A stretch of 64,000 nt of DNA from Verrucomicrobiota bacterium (GCA_038214755.1 JBBQRQ010000009.1:14871-78870); one strand, 5' to 3'. Shown: positions 26,720 through 43,668, counted from the first letter of the stretch. Numbers and translations are program-made. The notes: a model not told the origin generated them from the letters alone.

Positions 26720-29700
26720 TCAAGGTGATCCTCTGGCTCGGTAAAAACGTTGGTCGAGTCGCGGGATGGGATCAACGAAGTCGATAGTCCCGCCGCGACT
26801 GGAAAGGTTGGTCAAGGTTTGCCAATCGAATAAATTGGTGGACACTTCGATGGAGTAGGGGAGGTCGCTCTCGCCGCTCAACGTGAAATGAAACCGGCCA
26901 TCGGATAAAACGGAAATGGAACTTAACCGCGTCAAGGGCAGGATGGTTAAGGCTGCTATGTCGCTGATGATTGAACCTGCCGGATTCGAGATAACTACAG
27001 TGTAACCTCCGATATCAGCCGTTTGAACATTGGTTCGTGCATAGGAGCTATTAGTCGCTCCTGCGATATTGGCCTCGTTGAACTGCCATTGGTAAGTCAA
27101 CTGTCCACTGCCCGCCGCTAGCACAGTGAAGGTAGCATTGGAACTGGCTCTGACGTTTTGAAGCTGCGGTTGGCTATAAATGATCGGAGCGGTGCTATAG
27201 CTGAAACGCATCGCATCGGCCACGACAAGCTTGTTGATCTCCCCTGTGTTATTTTCTATTTCGACATAGCCGTTGGTCCCCCCGGCGAATTCTCGCGTCG
27301 TTAACAAACGCCAACCCCCACCTCCGGTAGTCTGGTTGATATGAGTCACGAGACTATCACCATTGAATACGATCAAAAGACGGGTGTTAGAGCTACGATT
27401 AGTGCCTTGAGGGTACGAGATGGAAATGTCATACATCCCGGCCAGCGGAATTGCCGGGGTATAAGTCGAGGAAGCGGTTGCACTTCCAATAACGGTGGAG
27501 GCGTACTGATAATAGCTCCCATATTTATCCGGCGCAGCGGTCGCTGTAGTCCAGACCCCATCGAACCGGGCGTCTGGGTTATCCAAGATGATATCTGCGA
27601 CGCTGATGAAATTGGCGAAAAGGGTTTTACTTCGCGTCATAGTAACATCAATCTGATTGCTGGTAGTCACTACGTCGCCAGACCATCCTACAAAAGAAAA
27701 GCCCGCCGATGCCGTAGCGTTTAATGAGACCATACTACCAGCGTCGTAGCCGGATTGGTCGGGAGTCACCGTGATAGTTCCTCCGGTCGGTGGATTGACA
27801 TAAGAGCGGAGATAGAGGTTGACTACGAGGAGTGCCGCGTCGCTGGAAACGGACCCTATCGGATTACTCAACACGACCGAATGCTCTCCCGCATCGTTCG
27901 TGGTGACATTGGTCAACGTATAAGTGCTATTGGTGGCATCCGATATGTCCGCACCTCGGAACCGCCACTGATAGGTTATAGGTGTGCTGCTGCTCGCGGT
28001 AACAGTGAAGGTTACGGACTGACTTTCCACCACCGTTTGACCGATAGGTTGTTGAGTAATGGAAGGAGGCGCAGGTGTGCCGGTCACCAGGATTAACCTC
28101 GGACCAGTGTTTGCATTTGCTTCCCCGGAAACAATGCTAAGACTATCCGCGTCTTGGGTGTCTCCTTGAAATCGAACTTCGCGCGCCAATAAAAAAGAAA
28201 CATCGCTACCCGGATGTTCACGAAGGAACCTCGTCACATCAATCATCCTGTCTTGCGAAGTAGCATCGGCCACAAATTGCCCGACGATCTGCGCGCCGGT
28301 CCCTTGTTCCGAAATAAAATTGTTCGTATAGTTGGTGCCCGGCGGGATGTTCTGTTTTAAGTTCGGCGCGTTACTCCAGGTAAGGCTATTCTGTGACCAG
28401 TTGTTATTCGTGATGCCATAAACGTGTGCTTGCACCAGGTTACTTCCATTGATCGATGATGCGCGGATAGTCAGCAGCGCGAACTGCAGGTCGGCTAAGT
28501 TAAAGGTGGGCAAATGAAATTTAAGAAAGGTCGCGCTACGACTGCTGGCATTGGTGGAATTATTCCTCACGAGGCAAACCGGATTAGTCGCGAAGTTCAA
28601 AGTTCGGTTCGCGCCGTCGTGAACCATCGCGTCATCGGTAGCGAGCAAAGTTCGCAACGGTTGTTGCGGTTGGGTAGGAATGGTGAAAAGCCAAACCGTA
28701 TTTGATGCGTGAATGCCGGCGTTAATCTGGTTGTTAGCTACCGTGAGGAGCGCCCTTGCGCCGCCATAAATATTTTCGCTGACCTCTTCCAGCAAGACCC
28801 GCTGACCCGTTCGCAAACCCCAGGAGGTTGTATCCAACGTTACGTCCACATTGGACGAGGAATTGTTGGCCGAAAAAACTTGATAGCGTTTCGTCGCAGG
28901 ATCAAAGGTCGAAACTAGATCCAATCCCGTCGCTCCAGTTCCTTTCGTTACATCCACACGATCGCGACCCGGTGCAGTGACTTTGTTAAATAAACGGTAA
29001 ACCTCTCCTGCCTTGGTGATACCTCCTATATTGTAAGGCGCGTTGAAATTATCCACAAAGTGCATCCCATTCTTTTTAACTGGAGTGGAAGTCTGGCTGA
29101 ATTTGAAACAATAAAGTTCGTTGACAAAATTGTTCACCAGGTTTGCGACAATGGAGCCGAAGCGCGCGTACTTCGATGGGGTATCCAATGTTTCGATCAA
29201 GGTATCGAAGACGCCCGCAGTATGAACATTAAACTCTGATAGACTCGAAGGATAGCGTGGTTCCGGTGACATATCGGCAGTCAGAGACGCGTGCAACCCT
29301 GCCACTCGACTACCAAAGGTGGACGGCACGGAATTGTATTCGTGATAATCGTATTGGCCGATGAGTGAAAAATTCGTATCGACCTGACCCAGAAAATCCT
29401 TGTGACGATTGGTTACGATGAGACGACCCCAGGTCGCATAGGTTGTCGAAACAGCGCCTGCCGTAACCGGAGCCAGCATTCGCGCCTTCAATGACTTGCC
29501 ATAGAGTTGATTCACGTCGGCCAATGCGGATTGAACAGCATCAGAGGCGAGTTGAAGACGCATCAGGTAATCGGCTTGCGGCAAAGTGCCACCGAGGTCG
29601 GGTTCGTTATACATCTGGAAACGCTCCACGTCGTATTCGCGTCCCAGGTAAAACGCTTCAAAATAAAAATGCTGCCATAACTCCCACTTGCCCGCCCAGT

Positions 29701-30202
29701 CATTGGTATCGATAATGTCGAACTGGCCGGGACTGGCGGTGATGTTGATCAGGATTTGCACACCCAGCCCGCGCAGCTTGGTGCAAGCATGATCCACGTT
29801 CAACAGGTTCGACCCATGCAGGGCGGTGACTCCAAATTGCGGGATAAGGTAAGGCCAGTTGATGTAATTCGTGTCGAGTGGATTGATGCGCAGCGCCGCT
29901 TTGCGACTGACAAAGCTGGCTTGGTTAGTCACACCATCGCCCCGGGCAGGCAAATCGTCGTTGGGTTCAATCACACTCGCCGTAAGGAACACACGCGCGC
30001 CGCCAACTCCCGCATAGTGCCACCAATCCTCCGTGTTGCTGAGTGGAGCAAAATGGCCTGAATTGTAGGCGATCAATTCGGGTGTGGCACCCAGCTTGTT
30101 AATGCTGACGGTCAGAGTTGCCGCGGGCAAAGTGGTCGTGAAAAATAAAAACGCCCAAAATAAGACGACGATTCGCCGAGGTAGATAGAATATGGAATGC
30201 AT
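26720..30202 (-). CDS. Modular exported glycoside-hydrolase-like protein (clan GH-A/GH39-like barrel, DNRLRE/CBM96-like, Ig, InlB-B-like repeat, golvesin-C-like, Ig, FYR domain)
   Basis: YNEPD acid/base-type motif and LSEF; ATDDAMV..TFLKF..TWSNAP; two QP...YQW Ig domains; F.GWSGD repeat; GMYDI...HINQ...GGW...VVADA; ends QRFYRARGSP. Confidence 0.75.
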   Translation of the reverse strand: MHSIFYLPRRIVVLFWAFLFFTTTLPAATLTVSINKLGATPELIAYNSGHFAPLSNTEDWWHYAGVGGARVFLTASVIEPNDDLPARGDGVTNQASFVSRKAALRINPLDTNYINWPYLIPQFGVTALHGSNLLNVDHACTKLRGLGVQILINITASPGQFDIIDTNDWAGKWELWQHFYFEAFYLGREYDVERFQMYNEPDLGGTLPQADYLMRLQLASDAVQSALADVNQLYGKSLKARMLAPVTAGAVSTTYATWGRLIVTNRHKDFLGQVDTNFSLIGQYDYHEYNSVPSTFGSRVAGLHASLTADMSPEPRYPSSLSEFNVHTAGVFDTLIETLDTPSKYARFGSIVANLVNNFVNELYCFKFSQTSTPVKKNGMHFVDNFNAPYNIGGITKAGEVYRLFNKVTAPGRDRVDVTKGTGATGLDLVSTFDPATKRYQVFSANNSSSNVDVTLDTTSWGLRTGQRVLLEEVSENIYGGARALLTVANNQINAGIHASNTVWLFTIPTQPQQPLRTLLATDDAMVHDGANRTLNFATNPVCLVRNNSTNASSRSATFLKFHLPTFNLADLQFALLTIRASSINGSNLVQAHVYGITNNNWSQNSLTWSNAPNLKQNIPPGTNYTNNFISEQGTGAQIVGQFVADATSQDRMIDVTRFLREHPGSDVSFLLAREVRFQGDTQDADSLSIVSGEANANTGPRLILVTGTPAPPSITQQPIGQTVVESQSVTFTVTASSSTPITYQWRFRGADISDATNSTYTLTNVTTNDAGEHSVVLSNPIGSVSSDAALLVVNLYLRSYVNPPTGGTITVTPDQSGYDAGSMVSLNATASAGFSFVGWSGDVVTTSNQIDVTMTRSKTLFANFISVADIILDNPDARFDGVWTTATAAPDKYGSYYQYASTVIGSATASSTYTPAIPLAGMYDISISYPQGTNRSSNTRLLIVFNGDSLVTHINQTTGGGGWRLLTTREFAGGTNGYVEIENNTGEINKLVVADAMRFSYSTAPIIYSQPQLQNVRASSNATFTVLAAGSGQLTYQWQFNEANIAGATNSSYARTNVQTADIGGYTVVISNPAGSIISDIAALTILPLTRLSSISVLSDGRFHFTLSGESDLPYSIEVSTNLFDWQTLTNLSSRGGTIDFVDPIPRLDQRFYRARGSP

Positions 30203-30401: not shown

Positions 30402-33400
30402 TTACGGACGCTCAAAGCGAATGCGGTAAAACCGCATGCCATTTGTACTCAGCGAGTCTGTATAGGATGACGAAATGCTCGTAGGCGGTTGATTGGTCCA
30501 GACATTCAGCCACACTTGATTCGTTGGGTTAAGCGTCAAACTGGTTTGTAGAGTTTGCCTCGCTTGCGTGCCCGCTTGCCAATCAATGCGAATGCCATTG
30601 GGAACTCTCTGCGCCCCGCTGATTCTGGGGTAAGAATTCGGATCAGTTGGATTCGTGTCCGCGATGTACTCGACAAAATTGCTCACGCCATCGTGGTCGA
30701 AATCACCATTGGTAGTTTGTGACAAGTTGCCGAAATACTGGAGTTCCCACCAGTCAGGGATGCCATTTGAGTTGGAGTCCTGATTCATGTTGATCTGAAA
30801 TGGAGTGGAGGGTGACCAATCCCCCAGCAGACTGAAATCCTGGGCGCGGGCACGGAGCAACACATTCGTGACTACGTTTCCGCCGAGGTCGCCCATTACA
30901 TTCCAAGTCAACGAATGATTTACACCTGTTGGCAAAGTAGCGACACGGTTGCTGGAACTATACGGTGCGCCATCTAAAGCCGTGAGCGTGGCGTTCTGCC
31001 AATTGGTCGCGCCGGAGAATTGGTATTGCAGGTAGGGTGTTGAAGCGTTGCCTTCGGCGTCCCAGAGACGAACCCTCAGGGCGGCCAGACTGCCCAGGAT
31101 ATTTGTCTGAGGTAACACGGCGGCGGCCGGTGGCGTTTGAACGATGCCTGCCGTTTGCGGCAGCACGGATTGCGGCGGCCACAGAATCACGTCGCATCGG
31201 GTTTGATTTATAGGATCAACACGCAGGCCGATCAAACCTTCGCCTGACCCCAACCTTTTCACACCCGCCAGCGCGTGCCAGGCCTTGCCCCCGTTCTGCG
31301 CGCTGAACAATTGCCGCTGCAACGGATTAGTACCCGTCGCCGTCCAGGCGAACACCTGACCGTCCGGCTCGCCGGTGAAAAAGACCTCGTTGCTGGCGTT
31401 GAGGAAATTCACCGAATCCAGGCCGTAACTCTGCGCCAATGTCAACGCGGCGATGGGCTGACGGGAAAGCGTCAACAAACTCGCGTTCGTTCCGCCCACC
31501 AGATATTCAGCCGTGACAAAGTCGTCGCCGAAATCAATCAAGCCGTTGGCGTTCTTGTCGTCGGTAAACGTGTAGAAAATGGAACTGCCGTTGGTGGCGC
31601 GCAGAAAACCTGAGGTGAGTGAACTACCACGCCAGTTGAACGTGTGTGCAGTCGACGGTTCTGAGAGCGAGCGCACCGGAACCTCGATAATTCCAGGAAA
31701 TATATTCAAAGGTACTTGGTAGTCGCGCCACTGTCCGTTCGCTTCAATGGCCGTATAAAACTCAAAGTTCTGTGGTTCGCCAGCGGCCCAGTTGGTGAAA
31801 GTAGAAGGTGAGCCGCTTATCCAGATGTACGGGTCAGCAAGCGTCTTCCTGTAAAAACCGATCCACGCTTGCACACCAAAATTGGTCGTGAGCCAGTTGT
31901 TTTCGGCCAAACTGTCTATTGTAACCAAGTTGCCTCCGAACTGCTGGGCATACGATTGAGCGGTTATCCAATCGGATTGCGTTGGCGTTAGAAAATAGGC
32001 CGACCCAGACCCGGCCCAGTATGTTGCATTCGCCGGAAGGGGTGGCGCAAAGGTGAGTTCGACTCCGCCAGAATCGAGTAGTCGAAAGCCCGTCCGATTT
32101 GCCATCAGGTCGGCAACAGTGCCAAGTCCGCGATGGGCGACGTTTGCCAATAGCGGACGAACGATCCAATTAGTCGAAAAGTTTGCGGCTGATAATGAGC
32201 CGTCCGGTGAATTGGATGTGGCGAGGCTGATAAGTATATCGGAACCACGCACGCCCAGTACGAACGCTGCTTGGTTCGTGGAAAGTGCCACCATATTCGA
32301 TTGCCAAAATCCACCGTTGCTCGTGAACTCCATCACGCGCCCGCTACCGTTCGTCGTTCCACGCAGGCCAACGTAGATTGCAGCGCTTGGCCGGTTCGTC
32401 ACTTGTCCGACGGCAATGGAGGTGATACCGAACGAACCTACGTCCACTCGTTGTGTTGACCAGCCGCTCGAAGTTTCTGTTAGAACCAGTAGAAAGTTCG
32501 TGTTCGTTCCCGGATTGCCATCCGCGCCGATGACAATCTCCTCAGCACCAATTCCGTCCAGTTGGCCGACGCCGACAACGAAGTTGCTGGGTGTGAATGG
32601 CAGAACGAGCGAGGCGATGTTTATGCCGGGATTGCCGAGAAGATTGGGAGTGGACAGCGCATTGGTCGGGCTGCTGCCGGCTTTCCATTCCTGATAATCC
32701 GTCCAGCCATCACCGTCGCTGTCAAAGTAGGGACTGGTGTTGTTGGTCAGACCGTTGAGAAAGCGCCAGAGCACCGGAAGCCCGTTCGTCTCAGCGGCGC
32801 GGGAGAGGACGGTGTAACGCGCGGGATTTCCGTCGCCATCGTATTGGTAGGCAAGGGATATGCCGCGCGAAGATTCTTCGCCGACAAGTCGGTCGGTGCG
32901 GTCGTAGAAAAAACGGTTGGTTTTCTGGCCGCCGGTGAAGATTTCGTAGTCGGAAAGACCCAGTCCTCTCGAATAACCGTTGCGAGGATTGAACGGGGTG
33001 TTGGTGTTGGCAAGGCTGTATTGATATTCCTGCGAATTGGAGAGACCGTCAAAATCTGCGTCGTCGTTTGCGTCATTGATTCGCGGATTCAAACCGTTCT
33101 GCACCTCCCAGCCGTCCGGCATCCCGTCGCCGTCGGTGTCCTTCTCCAGCGGGTTCGTCCCGAAGACGAACAACTCGTCGTAATCGGAGAGACCGTCGCC
33201 GTCGGTGTCCGCATGGTCGATTCTTGTCCCAATTCGAAATTCGGTTATGTTGTCCACTCCATCTCCATCTTCGTCACCATTTGCAGACACAACTTGAAGA
33301 TAAACTGGCGCACTCGTAACGGATCCAAAACTATTCGTGGCGTATAATGAATAGAATCCAGAGTTCCCCGCTCCAACATTGGTCAAAATCAAGGCGCTGT

Positions 33401-34163
33401 TGGTCGCCCCATTAATGTTTGTATTATTATACCGCCATTGCAGTTGGATCGGCAGTAAACCACCTACAGCAAACTGGAGAGTGAATGTTTCGCCCGCTGG
33501 AATAAAATTCGACAAAGCCGGGGGGATTGTGATGGTCGGAGCAGAGGGGAAAACATGAACAGAGACGTTATCCAAACCCCAACTCTCGTCCTCAATTTGC
33601 TGTAAATTTTCGCCATAAAATTCAATTGCAACAGAGTTGCTGCTGTGGTCGGCTTCAAACAAGAACCGATATATAAAATCCCCTCCGTATAGCGTATTTG
33701 TTAGCAACGCCCCTGTCCCTGTTGGATAATCTCCCCCCGGATATGCACCAGGGTAGGCCTGTCGCTTTTGTCCGCCCGAGTAGGCAAACGTAGTCCGTAG
33801 AAAATTTGTGCCTCCTTGAACTCTACAACCCCAAATATCAGGGCCGTATTGCGTGTCGTTACCATCCCATGAACCCAAGATGTAGAGGTCAAATGAGAGG
33901 CGAATCCGCTGGTGAGGCAGCAGATTCGTCAAAGTTAGCCGCACTGTCTGAAGGCCAAGTGGGCCAAGAAATTTCTCTCCAAAGGTAGGACTCGTTATAT
34001 TTGTAACAGACCATTCCGAACCAGCGTTCGAGGAAAACCCGTTGGTATAAATAAGCTGGGGAGATGCGGAGCACCGAGCCAATCCAGTCTCCATAATTAC
34101 GAGCAATAGCGCCGGAATCAGGGCGAGGCTTCGTTTGGTTTTTGTGGCGCTTGCCGTTTTCAT
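30402..34163 (-). CDS. Large exported partner of the Rhs protein: N-terminal beta-sandwich, Ig, TSP3-like repeats, short YD-repeat segment, FG-GAP-like propeller with inserted C-type lectin domain, C-terminal FYR domain
   Basis: ATG at 34163 gives a signal peptide; D.DGDG..D..E repeats; FFYDRTDRLVGEE..GISLAYQYDGDGN; VGQLDGIGAEEIVIG; W..AQ.YA..GGNLVTI...EN.W...AWIG...FTNWAAGEP...WRD lectin motif; ends RFYRIRFERP. Confidence 0.85.
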   Translation of the reverse strand: MKTASATKTKRSLALIPALLLVIMETGLARCSASPQLIYTNGFSSNAGSEWSVTNITSPTFGEKFLGPLGLQTVRLTLTNLLPHQRIRLSFDLYILGSWDGNDTQYGPDIWGCRVQGGTNFLRTTFAYSGGQKRQAYPGAYPGGDYPTGTGALLTNTLYGGDFIYRFLFEADHSSNSVAIEFYGENLQQIEDESWGLDNVSVHVFPSAPTITIPPALSNFIPAGETFTLQFAVGGLLPIQLQWRYNNTNINGATNSALILTNVGAGNSGFYSLYATNSFGSVTSAPVYLQVVSANGDEDGDGVDNITEFRIGTRIDHADTDGDGLSDYDELFVFGTNPLEKDTDGDGMPDGWEVQNGLNPRINDANDDADFDGLSNSQEYQYSLANTNTPFNPRNGYSRGLGLSDYEIFTGGQKTNRFFYDRTDRLVGEESSRGISLAYQYDGDGNPARYTVLSRAAETNGLPVLWRFLNGLTNNTSPYFDSDGDGWTDYQEWKAGSSPTNALSTPNLLGNPGINIASLVLPFTPSNFVVGVGQLDGIGAEEIVIGADGNPGTNTNFLLVLTETSSGWSTQRVDVGSFGITSIAVGQVTNRPSAAIYVGLRGTTNGSGRVMEFTSNGGFWQSNMVALSTNQAAFVLGVRGSDILISLATSNSPDGSLSAANFSTNWIVRPLLANVAHRGLGTVADLMANRTGFRLLDSGGVELTFAPPLPANATYWAGSGSAYFLTPTQSDWITAQSYAQQFGGNLVTIDSLAENNWLTTNFGVQAWIGFYRKTLADPYIWISGSPSTFTNWAAGEPQNFEFYTAIEANGQWRDYQVPLNIFPGIIEVPVRSLSEPSTAHTFNWRGSSLTSGFLRATNGSSIFYTFTDDKNANGLIDFGDDFVTAEYLVGGTNASLLTLSRQPIAALTLAQSYGLDSVNFLNASNEVFFTGEPDGQVFAWTATGTNPLQRQLFSAQNGGKAWHALAGVKRLGSGEGLIGLRVDPINQTRCDVILWPPQSVLPQTAGIVQTPPAAAVLPQTNILGSLAALRVRLWDAEGNASTPYLQYQFSGATNWQNATLTALDGAPYSSSNRVATLPTGVNHSLTWNVMGDLGGNVVTNVLLRARAQDFSLLGDWSPSTPFQINMNQDSNSNGIPDWWELQYFGNLSQTTNGDFDHDGVSNFVEYIADTNPTDPNSYPRISGAQRVPNGIRIDWQAGTQARQTLQTSLTLNPTNQVWLNVWTNQPPTSISSSYTDSLSTNGMRFYRIRFERP
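34108..34125 (+). repeat. Direct repeat copy 1 (AGCGCCGGAATCAGGGCG), att-like boundary of the TA cassette
   Basis: Identical 18-mer at 35267-35284; similarity extends about 12 bp further (AGGCTTCGTTTG vs GGGCGGCGTTTG). Confidence 0.85.
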
Positions 34164-34186
34164 GCGGAGCGGGTAAGGTTTGCGGC

Positions 34187-34444
34187 ATGAGCACGCTGAC
34201 GATTCAATTGCCGGATGACTTGAAAGTAGAACTGACGGTGGCCGCGCGCCGGTCGGGGAAGACGCCTGCGCGATTTGTGCGCGAGACGCTGGAGCATCGC
34301 TTGAAGCCCGGTCGTGTCCGGGCGCGCAGCCGTGCGTCGCTTTATGAATTGAGCCGCGACCTGTGCGGGAGCGTGACGGGCGGGCCGCCTGATCTCGCGC
34401 GGAACAAAAAATATTTGAAGGGTTATGGCGCATGGAAACGGTGA
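34187..34444 (+). CDS. Ribbon-helix-helix (CopG-like) antitoxin
   Basis: MSTLTIQLPDDLK..L..AARRSGKT...FVRE.LE; DLARNKKYLKGYG tail; overlaps the PIN gene. Confidence 0.85.
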   Translation: MSTLTIQLPDDLKVELTVAARRSGKTPARFVRETLEHRLKPGRVRARSRASLYELSRDLCGSVTGGPPDLARNKKYLKGYGAWKR

Positions 34445-34845
34445 TGGTGGATGCCGGGCCGTTGGTGGCTTATCTCAAGCGTGACGACGGGGATCACGTT
34501 TGGGCGAAGGAAGTGTTTCAACGTCTCACCACTCCGCTCTTGACATGTGACGCGGTATTGGGCGAAGTGGTTTTTCTTTTGCAGCAAACTCACGGCGGCA
34601 CGCGACAATTGATCGAGCTTTTGGAGAATGGCCTCGTCGTGCCCGCCTTCGATCTGGCCGGCGAACTTCCCGCCGTGGGAGAATTGCTCCGCAAATATGA
34701 GAGCGTGCCGATGTCGCTGGCGGACGCCTGTCTGGTGCGGATGGCGGAATTGCACCGGGACGCGGTGGTGCTCACGCTGGACGGAGACTTCCGAATCTAT
34801 CGCAAGAACCGGCGGCAGGCGATCCCGCTGATTTGCCCGGAGTGA
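34432..34845 (+). CDS. vapC: PIN-domain toxin (VapC family)
   Basis: VDAGPLVA...D.DH...E...MSLADACLV..AE...VLTLD.DF PIN motifs. Confidence 0.9.
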   Translation: METVMVDAGPLVAYLKRDDGDHVWAKEVFQRLTTPLLTCDAVLGEVVFLLQQTHGGTRQLIELLENGLVVPAFDLAGELPAVGELLRKYESVPMSLADACLVRMAELHRDAVVLTLDGDFRIYRKNRRQAIPLICPE

Positions 34846-34871
34846 TAGAACGCGGGGCGTGGAATAACACA

Positions 34872-35297
34872 ATGCCAACGATGAAAACCAAGAACCCCAA
34901 TCCCGGCTCGCACGAACATCTCCTACAGATTGTCGAGAAGCTGCCGAGCGATTTCGAGCCGTTCGGACGGCGGAAGCATCGTGGCTCGGATTGTTCGTGC
35001 GGTTGCAAACATTTTCTGAAGCTGGCTGGCGAGCTTGGTTCTGATTGGGGTGTCTGCGAGAATTCCAAAAGCCCGCGCTGCGGTTTGCTGACATTTGAGC
35101 ATCAAGGTTGTTCTGAATTTGAATCAGCGGAACGGTCGGCGCATGCATCACGACGGCATCCAGTTCTGGCAACGGAAACGCGCCACGCTCCAGCGGGTGG
35201 GCTGGGTGTAACCAGAATGAATCGTGAGCACGGAAGCTTGGCTCGCAAGACAAGCGCGGCGGCACGAGCGCCGGAATCAGGGCGGGGCGGCGTTTGA
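34872..35297 (+). CDS. DUF3027-like Cys-rich small protein (3' extension probably read-through)
   Basis: DCSCGCKHF..L.G.LG.DWGVC.N..SPR.G.LTFEHQGC..FE pattern. Confidence 0.65.
   Translation: MPTMKTKNPNPGSHEHLLQIVEKLPSDFEPFGRRKHRGSDCSCGCKHFLKLAGELGSDWGVCENSKSPRCGLLTFEHQGCSEFESAERSAHASRRHPVLATETRHAPAGGLGVTRMNREHGSLARKTSAAARAPESGRGGV
35267..35284 (+). repeat. Direct repeat copy 2 (AGCGCCGGAATCAGGGCG)
   Basis: Lies in a - strand ORF starting at 35316 (MNLGHHIKRRPALIPAL) that overlaps the Rhs stop codon (ATGA). Confidence 0.85.
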
Positions 35298-35312
35298 TGT
35301 GGTGGCCTAAGT

Positions 35313-38300
35313 TCATCGGCGGCGGGGGATCGTGAGAACTTGGCCTGGGCGAATGACATTCAGATTCTGGAGGCCGTTGGCGGCACCAATTGCTGCCGCA
35401 CTGCTGCCGTAGTTGTATCCAATGTTGCCGAGCGTGTCACCGGATTTGACTGTGTAGGTGGTTGATCCGCCTCCGCCGCTGCTGGTCGAAGTTGTGCCAC
35501 CGCCTGATCCGCCACTTGGCTTTGTTGACGTCGCTGCTGTCGTCCCAGAGGCTTTGGGGGCAGCGACAGTGGCGGTGCGGCTAGGCATTGAAGGGGCTTG
35601 CGATGATGAAGCCTTCTGAACTCCGTATCCTAAAGAGTTAAGAATATTTCCGCCTACATTGCCGGCAGCATTTATTCCATTCATATATGAATTCATCAAA
35701 AACTTGGAAAACTTCAAGATTGGATCGGTTGTGTGATTGGCTACTTGATCACCGATATAAAATGCAACACCAACTCCGCCGACACTTGCCCCACTCTCAA
35801 TAAGCTGTCCTCCAGCATGTATAGTATGAGCGAATGATTTAAATTGAAATCCGAGCTCTGCAATTTGCTCGCGCCGTTCGTTTCCCATACCAGATGCAAC
35901 AGTTAAATCTACAGCGGCGCTTTCAGCAAGGCCCTCAAGGCTTCCTTTAAACCAGCCAAGAGCAAATGCTGCTACCCACGGGTTCTGCCCATTTGGGTCA
36001 GTATACTTTAGCGGGTTTTCTTGCGCATAAGAAAACGCTTCTGGCTTCCACCCCGGCCCAATATTCTTCACCGGATCGCTGGATAGAAACACTCCTGCAT
36101 CCGCCGAGTAATACCGCGCTCGCATGAAGTAGAGACCGGGCAATTCCTCCATCACGCCTTGTGAACCGACGAAAAGATACGAATTGGAAAATTGAGATTG
36201 AAAATTCGTTGAGCCGAGGCTGCGGCCATAGGGCGTATAGGCGTATTGCGCCACAAGGTTTGCGCTTCCATCGGTGAGCGCGCTGATGTTGGCTTGCGCA
36301 TCGGCGTGATAACAGGTCAGGCCATTCGTAGCGTTTACTTTGTAGGACAGGTCGGGGCCGTGGACGTACCAGGCAGTGATGTTGCCACTGGCATCCGTGT
36401 CGCAGAGAGTCCGCTCCATGCTCCCTTGCAAGTCGAGAACGTAACGGGTTTCCACAGCATCCAACGTCCGCGAGATGCGGCGACCGAGCGCGTCGTAGCG
36501 GTTGGTGATAAGCTTGTCGGTCATCGGCATGAGCCGCCAGAAGATGGAAGTAGTGCGGTTATCTTCGTCGTAAGTCAGGGCCCAGCTTTGTCCACCACCA
36601 CTGGCGTTGGTCATGTTGCCGCTGGCATCGTATTGATAGGTGAAGTTGTTTGTAGAATTCAGGACATCGACGCGATTGGTGATACGGCCCGCTGGGGTGA
36701 AGCGGGATGTTTCATCAATGAGCGACGGTAACGGCCAGGCAAATGTTCCTCGTTCGCCACCGCCGGTTTTGTTGCCATTGCGGTCGTAGGCGTAAGTCAG
36801 CGCGATGTTGATCGAGTTGGAACTGATAAGCGACGGCGCATAACTGAGGCTGGTAATTCGGCCTGCGGTATCAAAGGAGTTCGTCTGGGTAATGCCATTG
36901 GGGTAGGTCCGTGCCAGGAGACGGTCCGCCTTATCGTAAGAGTAAGTCATTTGCCTTCCCGCCCAATCCACTTGATTGGTGACGCGACCGATGGCATCGA
37001 AGCGGTTCACCAAAACCTTCCCCGCTGGATAAGTCAACGCAACCACTCGCCCCAAAGCATCGTATCCATAATGAATGGTTTGTGAAAAAGCATCGGTCAC
37101 GTCAATGGCGCGATCCAGTGAATCATAAGTAAAGCGCGTCGTGGTGGGCGTCAGTCCAACGCGACGAGTGATGGTGCGGGGATTGTTGTTGTCGTCGTAG
37201 CTGAAGGTGTTTTGTCTTCCGGTATTGAATGTCACGGATTGAACGCGACTAACCGGGTCGTAAATAAGAGTGCGCGTCGTGCCATTCGGATCGATTTGTT
37301 GTCGCAAGCGAAGAAGCTCGTCGTAGTCATAACTCCACTGGTTCGTGTCCTGATTGATCTCTGTCTTACGCTCATTACGCAGGCCGTAGGTCATGACGTA
37401 GTGACCGCCCAGCGCGTCCGTGATGTTGGTGATGTTGGCAACCCCATCGTAGTCATAGAGCCACTGGAAATTTTCGGCATCCACCCATTTGGTGAGGCGT
37501 CCGCGTCCATCATAAAAGTGCAGCGAAGGATAGCCGTTTGGCGTAGTAATTTGTTTAATTCGTCCGGCCGCATCGTAGGAAGTGGTTCTGGTATCGCCTT
37601 GAGGATTCGAGTCAGCAATCGCACGGTTTAACCGATCATAAGTTTTCGTCCAACGTTGAGCAACCTGATCCATTAACGCAATAACATTGCCGTTGGCATC
37701 AAAGACATTTGTCGTAGTAAACCCCAGCCCGTTACTCACTCGCTCCAGGCGATTGGCGGAATCATAATAATTCGTGCTGGTATTGCCTATTGGATCGGTG
37801 ATGCGTTCCAGTTTTCCGCGAGTTGAGTAGAAAAATAAATTCGTATTACCCGAGCGATCTATTGTTTGGTTGCGTTGGTTTGCCGCGTCATAAAAATGCC
37901 GGGTGTTTTGTCCCTTGCCGTCGGAAGCAGCGAGGAGATTTCCATTGGCATCAAAGGTCCTGGTAAATATGCGGTTCAAGGGGTCCACGGTGCGGACAAC
38001 ATTGCCGTTAAGGTCGAGTGTTAAGAAGGTCAAATCTCCCAGCGGATTCATCTCGGCAAGTTTCCAGCCGACATCATTGAGCGTGTAAGTCCACGTGCTC
38101 AGCGCCGCGTCGGTTTTGGATTTCAAGAATCCATTCGTGTCGTAGCTCATGCTGGAAACGTGCGCGTTAGCATCCGTTGCGGTCATGACAAGTCCGTTAG
38201 TGAAATAAGTATAGGTCACCAAAGCGCCAAGCGCATCGTAATGACGAAGCAGGTTTCCGTTCGTATTGTTCAGTTCGTAAAAGTTCGTCCAGCCCAGAGG

Positions 38301-40268
38301 ATTGATGTCCTGAGCCGCCTTATTGAAGAACGGATGGAAAACCCAGCGATTCACTTCGCCAAGCGCATTGGTGCTGGCAATGACATTAGCGCGGTCGTCA
38401 TAGCCAAAAGTGGTCATCCAGCCCAATGGTTCGGTGATGCTGATGCGATTGCCATTCGTGTCGTAAGTATAGGTGGTGATATTCGTCAGCGGGTCTTGCT
38501 GCGAGAGGATATGCCCCTTGCGGTCGTAGGTTTCAACCCATTGATTAGTTCCGGAATCGGTGCGCCGTATTTGTCGTTTGCCGGGCACTCCATACTCAGT
38601 CGTTGTTGCGCGATTCAATGCATCGACCTGATTGGTAATTCTCCCATACTTATCATATTGAACCAAAACATTCGTGTTGACGCGTGGATCGACGATTCGA
38701 TCAAGCAAGCCGTTGGTGCTGTAAAGGAATTGCCATGTCGTATTGATATTTGTGTAAAGGCCGGAGGTGTTGGTGATGGATTTGGAGATGAGGCGGTTGG
38801 TCGAGTCGTAAGTAAAATTGGCCAGCCATTGACCAAATGTGACGTTGGTGACCAGTCCTGCCTGGTAATTGAAAACATATTTGCCGCCAGCAGAATCCAC
38901 AGCTTGCGTGACCACGCCGCTGATTTCGTTCCAAAGAATCTGGACGGCGTTGCTGTTGAAATCGCGGATGGCCGTAAGACGTCCACGCATGATGGCCGCA
39001 CCGGAATCTGGTTTACGAAAAATGTAAACAAGCCGCTCCGGCGTGGTCCATTGGCAGTTGGTGGAGGTAAGGGTGAATTCCCCGTGATACTCACGGTCCC
39101 GAGTGAAATACAAACCTGAGTTCAGATCCTTATCCCACGTTACGAGCGTGCCATCCCAAGACATCAAGCCAATAGTGTCCGTGTCGCCTAACGGGGAAAA
39201 AGCCTGGGCTGGCAGCACCCGAGTTTCAAAAGTGTGGCGCCATCCTTTGCCCAGCGGGCCGGTGGCGTAGGGGTCGAAGTTGACCAAGCTGTAGGTCCCG
39301 GAGACGTTCGCGCTGCTATAGCCAAATCGGAAATCGAATGTGATTCCCGGCGTCGGTCGCGCCTGCGCGGTTTGCTGCCAGGAAAAACCACCCGACAACG
39401 GCGAGAGTGCGTCGCGACCACCATTCTTTCGTGTATCGAAAGCGGATTGTTCACCCGCTTGATTCGCTTCTTCAAATGTCACAGGTCCGGAAGCAGTCGC
39501 GGATGCAGTTCCACTCGGCACCGGCGCAGGAGCAAAATTACGGAACTGGTCGGCGGTGTTGGTCGAGAATGCCAGAGGGAAGTAGCCTTTGAGATTCAAG
39601 GAGGGGTCGTTGGTTGGCTGGGAGGAGAACATGTTCTGGACGATGAACGCCTGCGCGTCGGTCGGAACGCTCTGGTAAACGGAAACCTCCTGCACTTCGC
39701 CGTAAAGGTATTGGCTTGAGCCCCAACCACCGATTGAAACCCCCTGAGTCACGGTGGAATTGCCGACCGTGCCGCCGCTGGAAAACATCAAGCGGCCATC
39801 TGTGTAGCCAGTGAATACCTCGCCCTGACGAACCACAGCGACATGATACCAACGCTCCAGATAAGGCCGGGCGATCAGAGTATTTGTGTACAATCCCGTT
39901 CCGCGCGCGGAGAACTCAATGTTCCCGGTGTTGATATTGAATTGAATCAGGTAAGCATGAGCGTCGGCCTGTGAACCGGTGAGCCGATTGACCAAAATGG
40001 TCATGTTTTCGGTAAGGTTCGTGCCGGATGGAATGGAGATCTTGAACCAGCACTGGACGATCATGGCATTGGCCGAGGAATTCCAACTCAGTCCACCTGT
40101 GGAATCGGTTACCTCAAGACGAGCGTTGCCGGGAAAGAGCGCAGCATGGCCGACGCAGATCGGGAGGAGTAGCACAGAGAACAGCAGAGAGACGCGAGAG
40201 CCAAAGACACGGTTCACCGGGTGTCTTGCTCCATCGCGTTTCGAGAATCTGAGTTTATCCGCGTTCAT
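35313..40268 (-). CDS. Sec-signal Rhs/YD-repeat protein: LamG-like N-terminus, DUF6531-like region, YD repeats, Rhs core, C-terminal extension ending in LysM
   Basis: Signal peptide ...SLLFSVLLLPICVGHA (start may be GTG at 40217); WYHVAVV LamG motif; LGKGWRHTF; many YD..G repeats; LYFMRARYYS..GVFLSSDP...YAQENPLKYTDPNG; terminal YTVKSGDTL..I......AI..ANGL.N.N.IRPGQVLTIP. Confidence 0.92.
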   Translation of the reverse strand: MNADKLRFSKRDGARHPVNRVFGSRVSLLFSVLLLPICVGHAALFPGNARLEVTDSTGGLSWNSSANAMIVQCWFKISIPSGTNLTENMTILVNRLTGSQADAHAYLIQFNINTGNIEFSARGTGLYTNTLIARPYLERWYHVAVVRQGEVFTGYTDGRLMFSSGGTVGNSTVTQGVSIGGWGSSQYLYGEVQEVSVYQSVPTDAQAFIVQNMFSSQPTNDPSLNLKGYFPLAFSTNTADQFRNFAPAPVPSGTASATASGPVTFEEANQAGEQSAFDTRKNGGRDALSPLSGGFSWQQTAQARPTPGITFDFRFGYSSANVSGTYSLVNFDPYATGPLGKGWRHTFETRVLPAQAFSPLGDTDTIGLMSWDGTLVTWDKDLNSGLYFTRDREYHGEFTLTSTNCQWTTPERLVYIFRKPDSGAAIMRGRLTAIRDFNSNAVQILWNEISGVVTQAVDSAGGKYVFNYQAGLVTNVTFGQWLANFTYDSTNRLISKSITNTSGLYTNINTTWQFLYSTNGLLDRIVDPRVNTNVLVQYDKYGRITNQVDALNRATTTEYGVPGKRQIRRTDSGTNQWVETYDRKGHILSQQDPLTNITTYTYDTNGNRISITEPLGWMTTFGYDDRANVIASTNALGEVNRWVFHPFFNKAAQDINPLGWTNFYELNNTNGNLLRHYDALGALVTYTYFTNGLVMTATDANAHVSSMSYDTNGFLKSKTDAALSTWTYTLNDVGWKLAEMNPLGDLTFLTLDLNGNVVRTVDPLNRIFTRTFDANGNLLAASDGKGQNTRHFYDAANQRNQTIDRSGNTNLFFYSTRGKLERITDPIGNTSTNYYDSANRLERVSNGLGFTTTNVFDANGNVIALMDQVAQRWTKTYDRLNRAIADSNPQGDTRTTSYDAAGRIKQITTPNGYPSLHFYDGRGRLTKWVDAENFQWLYDYDGVANITNITDALGGHYVMTYGLRNERKTEINQDTNQWSYDYDELLRLRQQIDPNGTTRTLIYDPVSRVQSVTFNTGRQNTFSYDDNNNPRTITRRVGLTPTTTRFTYDSLDRAIDVTDAFSQTIHYGYDALGRVVALTYPAGKVLVNRFDAIGRVTNQVDWAGRQMTYSYDKADRLLARTYPNGITQTNSFDTAGRITSLSYAPSLISSNSINIALTYAYDRNGNKTGGGERGTFAWPLPSLIDETSRFTPAGRITNRVDVLNSTNNFTYQYDASGNMTNASGGGQSWALTYDEDNRTTSIFWRLMPMTDKLITNRYDALGRRISRTLDAVETRYVLDLQGSMERTLCDTDASGNITAWYVHGPDLSYKVNATNGLTCYHADAQANISALTDGSANLVAQYAYTPYGRSLGSTNFQSQFSNSYLFVGSQGVMEELPGLYFMRARYYSADAGVFLSSDPVKNIGPGWKPEAFSYAQENPLKYTDPNGQNPWVAAFALGWFKGSLEGLAESAAVDLTVASGMGNERREQIAELGFQFKSFAHTIHAGGQLIESGASVGGVGVAFYIGDQVANHTTDPILKFSKFLMNSYMNGINAAGNVGGNILNSLGYGVQKASSSQAPSMPSRTATVAAPKASGTTAATSTKPSGGSGGGTTSTSSGGGGSTTYTVKSGDTLGNIGYNYGSSAAAIGAANGLQNLNVIRPGQVLTIPRRR

Positions 40269-40274
40269 CCGAGG

Positions 40275-40766
40275 TTAAAATTTCGCAGCGGCCATTTGCT
40301 TTACATTGTTGCAGCGAACAACTTTGTAAGTTTGATTTTCGGCAAAGAGAACAATTTCTGATCGCAGGCCGTTCTGTTCCATTTTAAATGCCACACATTT
40401 TTCAGGAGAGACGCCCGCCTGCCTTGACCAAGTTTCCGCTTCTTTTGGGAACACTTCCTTTAATGACCCAAAGACGCCTTGCTTTTTCAGCAGAGTCAGG
40501 CCCGCATCTGAAATTTCGTCTTGCAGGCTTTTTCGGATGAAGTCCAGTTGTTCGTTGGAAGTCCGACTTCGGACTGCGTCAGGAATCACGATCCGGTCGA
40601 GGAAAGTCGAACTGCCTGAACTGAGGTCACCAGAAAATTGCCTTAGAGATACTAACGCCCGGCGTCGAGGCGCATCGTGCCTCCAATGAAAATACAAAAG
40701 GCAAGACACCGCCCCAACCATCACCCCGCCAATTAGCCATGCCCGATTCATTGTGCGGCGTTTCAT
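40275..40766 (-). CDS. Hypothetical membrane-anchored protein, first gene of the Rhs operon
   Basis: N-terminal hydrophobic helix; stop codon 6 bp upstream of the Rhs ORF on the same strand. Confidence 0.7.
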   Translation of the reverse strand: MKRRTMNRAWLIGGVMVGAVSCLLYFHWRHDAPRRRALVSLRQFSGDLSSGSSTFLDRIVIPDAVRSRTSNEQLDFIRKSLQDEISDAGLTLLKKQGVFGSLKEVFPKEAETWSRQAGVSPEKCVAFKMEQNGLRSEIVLFAENQTYKVVRCNNVKQMAAAKF

Positions 40767-40947: not shown

Positions 40948-41802
40948 TTATTTGTTGGACTCGACATGCTTGCCGCGAATTTTCTGCTGATGAAAATCCC
41001 ACAGGAGCCAATCGTCATTCTCCACAAAGCGATTGAGTTTGGAATCCCACTTCTTCGGCAGGCGCTTATTTAATTTTTCGACAAAAGGCAAAAGAGGTCG
41101 TTGCGGCGGAAAGCGTTTCTCATGTTCGTCGAGCGCAATTTCCTGATGCCAACCAAATTTCTCTCGATACTTCGCAAAACCAAAACCATCAAAAAAATTA
41201 TCGCCGCCGACCAACGGCAGATACCACAGACTCGGAATGCCTCGCGGATTTTCTTTGATGGGAATTTCCATTTCCAACCGCTTCAACAGGGCCGCGCCCT
41301 TCGCATCGTTCCGCAAATGTTCCCGCAACTCGTGCAACGTTTGAAATTCCACCGGCGGACTGACAAAAAGAACCGGCTTATGCTGCGTCGTAGCAATGAT
41401 GATCTCGTGCGGAGTGCCGACGCTATAAATATTCGTCGGACAATAGGAGATGGCGAAGTCGCTCGTATCCACCATGCGAAGGTCGATGTGCAAGGTCTCC
41501 CAAAATTTATTGGCGCACCATGCGCGCGTCTCCGCCCCTTTTTTTCCACCCTGATAAGTCCAACGCTCCTTGATGCGGTCTCCGCTCTTCTCATCTTCGC
41601 GTCCGTATTCGTGCAAGCCGCGCACCTCCGGTTTGAACCAAGGATCAAACACAGTCACACCCTTGACTTGAAGAAATTCGCTCACGCGATTGCGCCAGCC
41701 AAATTGTTTTTCATTGGCGCGGGAAGCGACGAAATCCATCGGGCCGGAAAGATACACTCGCGCGCCTTGCAACAAATCCATCTGACGTTTTGAACCAGGC
41801 AT
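40948..41802 (-). CDS. Nucleoside 2-deoxyribosyltransferase-like protein
   Basis: VYLSGPM ... VFDP ... DLRMVDTSDF ... SVGT.HE ... KPV are NDT-fold motifs; start uncertain (41802 or 41781). Confidence 0.7.
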   Translation of the reverse strand: MPGSKRQMDLLQGARVYLSGPMDFVASRANEKQFGWRNRVSEFLQVKGVTVFDPWFKPEVRGLHEYGREDEKSGDRIKERWTYQGGKKGAETRAWCANKFWETLHIDLRMVDTSDFAISYCPTNIYSVGTPHEIIIATTQHKPVLFVSPPVEFQTLHELREHLRNDAKGAALLKRLEMEIPIKENPRGIPSLWYLPLVGGDNFFDGFGFAKYREKFGWHQEIALDEHEKRFPPQRPLLPFVEKLNKRLPKKWDSKLNRFVENDDWLLWDFHQQKIRGKHVESNK

Positions 41803-42020
41803 GGCGCGAAGGATAGGCAAGCTCAACTCAAGCCGCAACCATGTCGTAAAACTTAGCCGAAGGATTCAGTTGCAACAGAAGGTAACAAAGCGAACGAAGG
41901 TAATGGGATTGCGGGCAAATTCGGCGAAACTTCAACTCAACTCGTTTCGTGCGCCCACAGGCGATTTGAAGGCGAACTCCCGTCCGGTCAATGCTCCGTT
42001 TCCTTCTGTAACGGTCTAAA

Positions 42021-43086: not shown

Positions 43087-43389
43087 TTAGCGATTTGCAT
43101 TGGCACGGCTCCAACGCCGGGCCGCAGCACGGAAAGCCCCCTCGTGCTCCGGCCAATCGTGAAGCGTGGCCGGGTCGAAGTCGGCCCCACAGGGCCAAAC
43201 GACGGTGTGAATCTCCGGGTCGAGCGTGACCTGAGCGAAAGCCGCCGGGTCGCGGAGCGGGCCGTAAAGCTCGCCCTCAAGAATCGGCTCAAAATCAATG
43301 GTGCGCGCCAAACCATCGTTGAAGCGCAGACGCAGTGAATACGGAGCGATGTGCTCGCAGGAGGTGATTCGGTAAATCGGATGGTTCAT
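43087..43389 (-). CDS. DUF2442 family protein (TA-like pair)
   Basis: LRLRFNDG...DF...G..Y.PL.D...F.QV......TVVWP.GADFDP..L. Confidence 0.85.
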   Translation of the reverse strand: MNHPIYRITSCEHIAPYSLRLRFNDGLARTIDFEPILEGELYGPLRDPAAFAQVTLDPEIHTVVWPCGADFDPATLHDWPEHEGAFRAAARRWSRANANR

Positions 43390-43398
43390 GGCGCTACT

Positions 43399-43668
43399 CT
43401 ACATCAAAGGAGTGATTGGGGAAGGCTTGCGGCCCTGTTCCAGAAGTGCCCAATCGGCCAGCAACTCTTCCTCGTGCAGCTCGGCCCACGCCTCGACGAG
43501 CCGCTGCTGGCGCTGCGCAATGACGCCGATGATGAGCGTGACCGGCGAAATGGAAAAGACGGCAACGTGCTCACCGTAGTAAGCGTGGAAATGCGGAACG
43601 TGGTGGCGCTCCGAAGGCTCGGAGAACATCCGAATGATGATACCATAAAAGCGTGAGAGTTCGGGCAT
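43399..43668 (-). CDS. DUF4160 family protein (HicA-like, TA-like pair)
   Basis: MPELSRFYGIIIRMF...HHVPHFHAYY...LVEAWAELH.EEL..W. Confidence 0.9.
   Translation of the reverse strand: MPELSRFYGIIIRMFSEPSERHHVPHFHAYYGEHVAVFSISPVTLIIGVIAQRQQRLVEAWAELHEEELLADWALLEQGRKPSPITPLM

What the first reader, a model, noticed from the sequence alone, without database searches (positions are those of the whole stretch)
30402..40766. Candidate two-component, Sec-exported Rhs 'cocoon' system with a lectin-bearing partner instead of an immunity gene
Seen: a three-gene - strand unit of (i) a small membrane protein, (ii) a 1651-aa Rhs protein with its own signal peptide, LamG domain, YD repeats and intact core (RARYY...SDP...DPNG), and (iii) a ~1250-aa exported protein. 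The third protein carries a lone YD-repeat segment (FFYDRTDRLVGEE...YQYDGDGN, ~32810-32920), an FG-GAP-like propeller with an inserted C-type lectin domain, Ca-binding TSP3-like repeats and the FYR C-terminal domain. No PAAR, VgrG, T6SS genes or small immunity gene are adjacent. Established: in ABC/Tc toxins the Rhs shell is built from two chains, TcB (FG-GAP/VCBS propeller plus YD strands) and TcC (Rhs core plus cargo), and teneurins are surface YD shells. Inference: the partner may cap or complete the YD barrel, tether it to the surface and target glycans, making a T6SS-independent delivery or adhesion device.
Basis: partly seen in the sequence, partly recalled or inferred. Interest (0 to 1): 0.85.

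Follow-up and report, generated by a model that had tools for sequence, protein, structure and literature searches.

The report
Lectin-guided Rhs capsule without immunity gene
A conserved three-gene set in Verrucomicrobia encodes an Rhs protein capsule (predicted complete on its own) with highly variable cargo and no recognisable immunity gene, beside a partner with swappable predicted sugar-binding domains that likely docks on the capsule and aims it at other cells' surfaces.

Summary
The unit is real and conserved, but not quite as first described. Small membrane protein, signal-peptide LamG-Rhs and partner keep their order: all 20 informative Rhs-anchored loci have a downstream partner with a lone four-strand YD segment. 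Four natural Rhs-partner fusions exist. The partner is not a TcB equivalent: the Rhs model aligns from plug to core region with single-chain shells, and seven partners lack the propeller yet keep the YD segment. Cargo is hypervariable (61 clusters among 109) with no Pfam toxin match: mostly Gly/Ala-rich hydrophobic segments, some PLA2- or lipase-like, then a linker and often a LysM, amphipathic or transmembrane tail. No immunity family lies downstream. Best reading (0.5): a Sec-exported, lectin-guided polymorphic membrane-attack capsule, working like Streptomyces umbrella toxins on an Rhs scaffold. Binding, export route and toxicity are all untested.

The parts
40275..40766 (-). Small conserved protein, 163 aa, N-terminal hydrophobic helix; unnamed family; putative membrane-anchored chaperone or assembly factor (inferred)
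   Evidence: Upstream of the Rhs in 56 of 83 loci; 256 homologues without Pfam; NTF2-like leads under 0.9 only; no PDB match
35313..40268 (-). Rhs protein, 1651 aa: signal peptide, LamG, plug (DUF6531), YD shell, autoprotease core, 224-aa cargo
40140..40268 (-). Predicted Sec signal peptide of the Rhs (aa 1-43)
   Evidence: Sequence pattern by eye; similar leaders before a conserved A-x-F-x-G in homologues
39651..40058 (-). LamG (Laminin_G_3) domain, aa 71-206
   Evidence: Pfam E 1e-9
39147..39398 (-). DUF6531 / N-terminal plug region, aa 291-374
   Evidence: Pfam E 0.003, below cut-off; model aligns to 7q97 from residue 272
35985..36239 (-). Rhs core with both catalytic-type aspartates (D1398, D1424)
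   Evidence: TIGR03696 E 1e-12, above cut-off
35316..35987 (-). Cargo aa 1428-1651: Gly/Ala-rich hydrophobic segment, Ser/Thr/Gly linker, LysM
35325..35456 (-). C-terminal LysM domain, aa 1605-1648
   Evidence: Pfam E 1.6e-12
35262..35296 (.). Direct-repeat copy 1; encodes the remnant of the partner's old signal peptide, ATGA-coupled to the Rhs stop
34833..35297 (+). DUF3027-like ORF of the inserted cassette
   Evidence: Pfam E 2e-4, below cut-off
34432..34845 (+). PIN-domain (VapC-type) toxin of the inserted toxin-antitoxin cassette
   Evidence: Pfam E 8e-11
34187..34444 (+). Ribbon-helix-helix antitoxin of the inserted cassette (ATG at 34187, back to back with the partner ATG)
   Evidence: Pfam RHH_1 E 0.013, below cut-off
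34103..34137 (.). Direct-repeat copy 2, inside the present partner signal peptide
30402..34163 (-). Partner protein, 1253 aa, exported, with FYR-type C-terminal domain
33291..33539 (-). Ig domain of partner, aa 209-291
   Evidence: Pfam, below cut-off
32979..33281 (-). TSP3-like Ca-binding repeats, aa 295-395
   Evidence: TSP3_bac E 9e-13
32796..32924 (-). Lone four-strand YD segment, aa 414-456; the part kept in every partner examined
31167..32636 (-). Beta-propeller, aa 510-999, absent from seven partners
31677..32030 (-). C-type lectin inserted in the propeller, aa 712-829; a swappable slot
   Evidence: Pfam E 7e-7; PDB sequence hits; alternatives
30786..31151 (-). Conserved all-beta (Ig-like) domain, aa 1005-1126, kept in propeller-less partners
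30405..30626 (-). FYR-type C-terminal domain, aa 1180-1253; putative sorting or surface-anchoring signal
   Evidence: 104 of 119 partners and 4 of 119 Rhs end in this motif; about fourfold enriched at ORF ends in G000

Best explanation
This is a conserved three-gene module whose Rhs protein is predicted to form a complete single-chain capsule, likely exported by Sec, and whose partner likely docks on it through its lone four-strand YD segment and aims it at glycans on other cells. Inferred steps: (1) both large proteins reach the periplasm by Sec, and the small membrane protein assists folding or assembly; (2) the core autoprotease cuts after D-P-N-G and the hydrophobic, polymorphic cargo stays shielded in the shell; (3) the partner, which has the FYR tail that the Rhs lacks, carries or holds the capsule at the surface and binds a target through an interchangeable lectin slot; (4) the cargo, a membrane-inserting helical segment or a lipid-attacking enzyme, is released there and held on the envelope by its LysM, amphipathic or transmembrane tail; (5) shielding plus targeting of non-self surfaces replaces a cargo-specific immunity gene. 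Shown: gene order, domain content, intact core, cargo polymorphism, lack of a recognised downstream immunity gene, natural fusions. Predicted: folds. Untested: binding, export, target, toxicity.
For: Synteny: 19 of 20 informative Rhs-anchored loci have the partner YD segment by tblastn and the 20th (L109) has a divergent partner that still carries one; 18 of 20 informative partner-anchored loci have the Rhs core upstream; 13 of 401 order-level genomes hold both, of 18 with the partner segment and 15 with the Rhs N-terminus, G000 included. Four single-ORF Rhs-partner fusions among the 150 listed representatives. The YD segment is kept when the propeller (L023, L059, L060, L061, L072, L109, L122), the N-terminal domains (L098, P0057, P0077) or the insert are lost. 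The insert slot holds C-type lectin, LamG, F5/8, an FGE-sulfatase-like domain or nearly nothing. Cargo: 61 clusters among 109; no toxin Pfam and 13 LysM among 43; PLA2-like motif in 4 and nucleophile-elbow-like motif in 3 of 109 by regex. No immunity family among 75 of 130 intergenic ORFs scanned; hits are toxin-antitoxin families, a LysM fragment and a phage-collar domain. Another Rhs in G000 (C18) is followed by an ankyrin-like ORF by eye. A hydrophobic cargo of a bacterial teneurin-like protein permeabilises cells from the periplasm (PMC13018210, passages).
Against: There is no direct evidence of binding. No cargo has a curated toxin match, and the PLA2/lipase calls are motif-level only. 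In the teneurin-like system the shell alone did not protect the producer and immunity genes were needed (PMC13018210), which weakens step 5; the conserved small upstream protein could be a shared immunity factor. Transmembrane tails in the four fusions and in 3 of 109 cargos point to anchoring in the producer rather than the target. The FYR export route is inferred; a search found no paper on it. Other Rhs genes in G000 also lie next to FYR-tail proteins that lack a YD segment, so adjacency alone is not specific. In this genome the inserted cassette may be polar on the partner.
Confidence: 0.5

Rival explanations
1. Non-toxic tethered adhesin or grapple: the cargo is a membrane-inserting hook that stays tied by its linker to the producer's peptidoglycan (LysM) or membrane, and the Rhs-partner pair attaches the cell to glycans, particles or prey.
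For: No toxin Pfam among 43 cargos; tails are LysM-like in 27, amphipathic in 42 (shuffle control 15%) and transmembrane in 3 of 109; fusions have helix-basic patch-second leader junctions like the motif-helix-basic tails of PMC3237569 (abstract); partners carry Ig, cadherin, LamG and TSP3 domains.
Against: Hypervariable cargo behind an invariant autoprotease is the signature of polymorphic toxins (PMC3482391, section 42); PLA2- and lipase-like cargos exist; 37 of 109 tails fit no anchor class by my thresholds.
Confidence: 0.2
2. The partner's four strands complete the shell in trans by filling a missing YD unit in the last tier (Rhs about 1170-1185), acting as a patch or latch; this is the narrow form of the first reader's idea.
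For: RhsA (7q97) has about 35-45 extra residues there (overlapping HMMER stretches), as do G000 Rhs on C18, C57 and C100; the model has pLDDT under 50 at 1148-1181; size and pattern fit the partner segment; no other ORF in G000 scores above 12 bits with the partner-YD profile.
Against: The same short tier is in 19 of the 27 usable non-family Rhs examined (43 of 150 hits picked by hand; 10 family, 6 unusable), so it is not special to this family; their gene neighbours could not be checked. The partner-YD profile prefers that position in only 1 of 10 long-form or split Rhs (second best in 2). pLDDT is also under 50 at the N-terminus, 322-327, 1343-1371 and the core end.
Confidence: 0.17
3. Co-regulated but physically independent proteins: the partner is an ordinary FYR-tailed surface lectin whose YD segment is a relic of an Rhs gene.
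For: Mosaic FYR proteins are abundant in G000; partners occur without an upstream Rhs in L048 and L059; insertions between the genes are tolerated in 10 of 36 junctions.
Against: The YD segment is as conserved as any partner domain (mean 0.68, ten positions at 0.95 or more) and survives loss of most of what surrounds it; four fusions.
Confidence: 0.1
4. True TcB-TcC-like two-chain shell in which the partner's propeller gates the capsule.
For: The partner supplies a propeller and YD strands, as TcB does (PMC8765631, passages).
Against: Rhs model aligns with single-chain shells from plug to core region (7q97 TM 0.69, residues 272-1327) and poorly with TcC halves (TM 0.20-0.24); propeller absent in seven partners; only four YD strands in the partner.
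Confidence: 0.03

Closest known systems
Sec (T2SS)-exported LamG-Rhs polymorphic toxins (Zhang et al. 2012, PMC3482391; passages and section 42 read)
   Same: Signal peptide, N-terminal laminin-G, RHS repeats, core, variable C-terminus; LysM is listed there among adhesion domains of such toxins.
   Different: No cognate immunity gene; no recognised toxin domain; cargo often ends in an envelope-binding tail; a constant YD-bearing lectin partner and a constant small upstream gene.
T6SS Rhs effectors (RhsA 7q97, Rhs1 7pq5, Tse5, RhsP; PMC8765631, passages)
   Same: Single-chain shell with N-terminal plug and C-terminal aspartyl autoprotease.
   Different: No PAAR/VgrG/T6SS in G000; signal peptide and LamG instead; short last tier.
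Streptomyces umbrella toxins (PMC13274773, abstract; PMC11062931, search listing)
   Same: Works-like analogy: polymorphic toxin plus diversified, separately encoded lectins that would set target range.
   Different: Unrelated scaffold (YD shell; the ALF-repeat scaffold of umbrella toxins is recalled, not checked); diderm producer; one partner gene per locus as a rule.
Tc toxin BC cocoon (TcB-TcC)
   Same: YD strands and a beta-propeller on a second chain; same core motif.
   Different: Shell is single-chain here; partner has four YD strands and a dispensable propeller; presence of a TcA could not be judged (inconclusive).
Bacterial teneurin-like proteins (9ifo; PMC13018210, passages)
   Same: YD shell; some have a hydrophobic, membrane-damaging cargo.
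   Different: They are single-chain and almost all have a downstream immunity gene.
Caulobacter CdzC/D glycine-zipper bacteriocin (PMC5380434, search listing only)
   Same: Gly/Ala-rich hydrophobic, surface-associated killing modules resemble many cargos by eye.
   Different: No Rhs shell; no homology tested.

Membership tests
Rhs/YD-shell proteins | YD/RHS repeats forming a spiral shell | tested here: met
   Pfam/TIGR01643; model pLDDT 81.5, Foldseek E 1e-59 to T6SS Rhs shells
Rhs/YD-shell proteins | Conserved core with two aspartates ending DPxG | tested here: met
   TIGR03696 above cut-off; motif kept across full-length homologues
Polymorphic toxin systems | Variable C-terminus on a conserved scaffold | tested here: met
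   61 clusters among 109 cargos
Polymorphic toxin systems | Recognised toxin domain in the C-terminus | tested here: inconclusive
   0 of 43 Pfam toxin hits; PLA2- and lipase-like motifs in 7 of 109 by regex only; Atlas leads under 0.9
Polymorphic toxin systems | Cognate immunity gene directly downstream | tested here: not met
   Partner follows within 120 nt in 19 of 36 junctions; no immunity family in 75 intergenic ORFs scanned
Polymorphic toxin systems | Toxic activity | not testable with these tools
   needs an assay
T6SS Rhs effectors | PAAR/VgrG linkage and T6SS in the genome | tested here: not met
   TIGR03355, TIGR01646, PF05488 not found in G000 (97% complete), controls rang
Tc toxin BC | Shell split between a TcB-like chain and a TcC-like half | tested here: not met
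   Rhs model spans plug to core region of single-chain shells; partner has four YD strands
Tc toxin BC | TcB-type FG-GAP propeller in the second chain | tested here: inconclusive
   Propeller present, no FG-GAP Pfam hit; integrin, WD40 and lectin propellers score alike, TcB not listed
Tc toxin BC | TcA translocase in the genome | tested here: inconclusive
   PF03538 rang nowhere, controls included
Umbrella toxins | UmbC/UmbB/UmbA scaffold domains (ALF repeats, trypsin-like; recalled) | tested here: not met
   No such Pfam or NCBIfam match in the three proteins
Umbrella toxins | Diversified lectins on a separate subunit | tested here: met
   Swappable insert; glycan binding itself untested
Bacterial teneurin-like proteins | FN-plug and NHL propeller in the shell chain, plus immunity gene | tested here: not met
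   DUF6531-type plug, no NHL in the Rhs; lower fold match to 9ifo (TM 0.28-0.32); no immunity gene found

The most novel reading that the evidence does not exclude
The partner's four YD strands are a piece of the capsule wall supplied in trans: they latch a gap in the last tier, the cargo's long linker threads out to a LysM or membrane anchor, and lectin binding to a target opens the latch and pulls out a membrane-attacking cargo. That would be a glycan-gated release mechanism for an Rhs shell that needs neither an injection machine nor an immunity gene.
Probability: 0.17. Interest if true: 0.92.

Novelty: new variant of a known kind. Interest (0 to 1): 0.72.

Why it matters
How Sec-exported Rhs shells reach a target and release cargo without a T6SS or a TcA is an open question. 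This family offers a compact test case: a constant shell, a constant 40-residue segment on a separate protein, an interchangeable lectin slot, a polymorphic cargo and natural fusions. If it holds, lectin-guided polymorphic weapons arose independently on an Rhs scaffold in diderm bacteria from soil, sediment and freshwater samples, and they manage without cargo-specific immunity genes. It also points to an apparently undescribed FYR-tail sorting route in Verrucomicrobia.

Tried and rejected
No model of the Rhs-partner complex was obtained, so the interface question stays open. TcB-like role rejected. 'Missing unit is family-specific' rejected by the outgroup control, and the partner-YD profile did not single out that position; a MAFFT alignment of the region collapsed repeats and was not used. 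Small protein: no PDB profile match, Pfam only weak DUF4381 on its hydrophobic N-terminus in 14 of 41, Atlas leads under 0.9. Cargo Atlas search gave leads under 0.9 only. TcA search uninformative. Promoter scan at chance level, terminators 19 against 13.6 +/- 3.4 in shuffles. No RNA holder listed. No joint skipping the cassette in the contigs laid; X1 may be the source of the window. The cassette's repeat is not a genome-wide element: 2 copies in G000. DUF3027 and PIN genes rejected as immunity genes: opposite strand, and found with unrelated cargos. Phylum sample 0 of 400. Earlier findings: four look-ups returned nothing. Literature searches that found no description of this module; subscription papers are missing from the library and no supplements were read (lists in PMC3482391 could hold members).


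Full report
1. What is in the sequence. The window is G000:C9:14871-78870. Three - strand ORFs are as reported: 163 aa (40275-40766), 1651 aa (35313-40268) and 1253 aa (30402-34163). The Rhs has LamG 71-206, a weak DUF6531 at 291-374, RHS repeats and a C-terminal LysM 1605-1648, and a core above the TIGR03696 cut-off. The partner has Ig, TSP3_bac, Lectin_C and one weak RHS repeat at 420-451. Between the two large genes lie RHH, PIN and DUF3027 genes on the + strand, flanked by a 35-nt direct repeat 1159 nt apart. The ATGA at the Rhs stop opens a short leader that resembles the partner starts of uninterrupted loci (L072, L078, L113, L117), so the cassette appears to have entered the partner's signal-peptide codons and a new start was formed beside it (inference). 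One 9730-nt contig covers 30913-40642 without differences (that run may be the source of the window).

2. Family and synteny. The partner core has 159 homologues at E 1e-10 or better, the Rhs N-terminus 153, the small protein 256 at 1e-5; source names, where given, are mostly Verrucomicrobiota, with some MAG titles from other taxa. Of 80 Rhs-anchored metagenome loci, 29 reach the core and 20 have 3 kb or more beyond it (18 distinct); 19 have the partner YD segment by tblastn and L109 has a divergent partner that also carries a lone YD unit. Of 33 partner-anchored genome loci, 4 had no YD hit at threshold and 9 had under 4 kb upstream; 18 of the other 20 have the Rhs core upstream. The small gene precedes the Rhs in 56 of 83 loci with 800 nt upstream, not de-duplicated. 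Among 36 distinct Rhs-partner junctions that I could read, 19 have 120 nt or less, 10 hold toxin-antitoxin genes on the opposite strand, and 7 have 250-1500 nt without a recognised immunity gene. In 401 genomes of the order, 18 hold the partner segment, 15 the Rhs N-terminus and 13 both, G000 included; in a phylum sample, 0 of 400. The module is patchy and rare; many genomes are incomplete and kin are not independent.

3. The Rhs is a whole shell. The model of residues 236-1432 (46 sequences, pLDDT 81.5, pTM 0.75) matches single-chain T6SS shells over about 1150-1180 columns (7q97 TM 0.69 by target) and TcC halves poorly (0.20-0.24); it spans 7q97 residues 272-1327, from the seal and plug (268-386 in PMC8765631, passages) to the core region. 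RMSDs are high and the core end of the model is low-confidence, so this shows class and extent, not closure. G000 has no TssC, VgrG or PAAR match.

4. The partner. The model of 295-1253 (58 sequences, pLDDT 88) shows four strands at 416-454, a propeller at about 510-999 with the lectin inserted, an all-beta domain and the FYR domain. Propeller matches are generic (integrin, WD40, a bacterial lectin; Z 24-27). In 29 homologues scanned, the insert is a C-type lectin, LamG, F5/8, an FGE-sulfatase-like or Gly-rich domain, and N-termini vary widely; the insert is the least conserved part (0.32 against 0.61-0.74 for YD, propeller and the all-beta domain). Seven partners lack the propeller and three start almost directly with the YD segment, yet all keep it. 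104 of 119 partners and 4 of 119 Rhs end in the FYR motif. Four representatives are single-ORF fusions of Rhs and partner.

5. The cargo. Of 120 Rhs proteins examined, 109 gave a usable cargo (those without a core motif or truncated were dropped), median about 250 aa. The first 130 residues fall into 61 clusters and are 27% Ala plus Gly (first 100 residues); the last 100 are rich in Ser, Gly, Ala and Thr. Pfam finds LysM in 13 of 43 locus-derived cargos and no toxin family; precomputed domains give LysM in 28 of 120 and two singletons that I did not look up. By my thresholds tails are LysM-like in 27, transmembrane in 3, amphipathic in 42 (15% in shuffles) and other in 37; 4 have a PLA2-like and 3 a lipase-like motif (motif patterns recalled). 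No family of cytoplasm-acting toxins was recognised. 75 of 130 intergenic ORFs (long shadow frames and partner starts mostly left out) gave only toxin-antitoxin families, a LysM fragment and a phage-collar domain.

6. Does the partner patch the shell? Against RhsA, and against three other Rhs in G000, this family lacks one four-strand unit just before the last tier, where the model is uncertain, and the partner segment has that size and pattern. Against this, 19 of 27 usable non-family relatives share the short tier and the partner profile prefers that position in only 1 of 10 long or split forms. No model of the complex is in hand. I keep this as a rival and as the novel case.

7. Mechanism. 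Most likely (0.5) the module is a lectin-guided polymorphic membrane-attack capsule: Sec export, autocleavage, docking through the YD segment to an FYR-tailed partner that supplies surface display and glycan recognition, release of a hydrophobic or lipolytic cargo held on an envelope by its tail. Rivals: tethered non-toxic adhesin (0.2), patch or latch in trans (0.17), independent proteins (0.1), true TcB-TcC (0.03). The weakest step is self-protection: in bacterial teneurin-like proteins the shell did not protect and immunity genes were needed (PMC13018210, passages), so the small upstream protein deserves a test as shared immunity or chaperone.

8. Comparison and novelty. LamG-Rhs toxins exported by the general secretory pathway are known (PMC3482391, passages and section 42). 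Lectin-guided polymorphic toxins are known as umbrella toxins (PMC13274773, abstract). Tails made of motif, helix and basic residues are known sorting signals (PMC3237569, abstract). I found no paper on this three-gene module or on a lone-YD lectin partner (open-access library only, supplements not read). It fails the membership tests for T6SS effectors, Tc BC and teneurin-like proteins, and lacks the immunity gene of classical polymorphic toxins. Verdict: a real feature and a new variant of a known kind; interest 0.72.

Noticed in passing
window 34103-35297; L032, L033, L036, L039, L053, L059, L061, L077, L091, L102: Different toxin-antitoxin cassettes (PIN, DUF433/DUF5615, PemK, MazE, often with DUF3027) sit on the opposite strand just upstream of, or inside, the partner's signal-peptide codons, with a new partner ATG back to back with the first cassette gene. 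A matching 16-nt site marks the junction in the window, L032, L050, L066 and L077. It looks like a recurrent insertion hotspot; no integrase was looked for.
   Followed up: partly
P0246, P0250, P0253, P0342: Single-ORF Rhs-partner fusions with a Gly-rich linker, a hydrophobic helix, a basic patch and a second signal-like helix at the junction, as in a polyprotein cut by signal peptidase (not checked at DNA level).
   Followed up: partly
P0244, P0279, P0293: Giant Rhs proteins of another lineage have a transmembrane plus signal-like break exactly before the last four-strand unit and core, suggesting a natural split point of YD shells.
   Followed up: no
G000 genome-wide: 181 of 7718 stop-to-stop ORFs of 150 aa or more end in an F-[YF]-R motif against 0.55% at internal control positions: a probable C-terminal sorting domain for which no paper was found.
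   Followed up: partly
G000 C3, C18, C57, C74, C100: Five other Rhs loci; C100 and C57 lie next to FYR-tail proteins without a YD segment, and C18 has ankyrin-like ORFs after each cargo (by eye).
   Followed up: partly
L048, L057, L112: Two partner genes or partner fragments in one locus (tandem, or on both sides of the Rhs).
   Followed up: no
L085 5340-6062, L107 5393-6025: A same-strand ORF with a weak phage tail-collar match directly follows the Rhs.
   Followed up: no
window 26720-30202: 1160-aa exported protein with CBM96/DNRLRE, Ig, InlB-B and Golvesin domains and an FYR-type end, directly downstream of the partner; beyond shared Ig domains it was not seen in related loci.
   Followed up: partly
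window 40948-41838: 296-aa nucleoside deoxyribosyltransferase-like ORF upstream (weak Pfam); no match in related loci.
   Followed up: partly
window 43087-43668 and 43870-44163: Further small ORFs that look like toxin-antitoxin genes by eye; not scanned.
   Followed up: no
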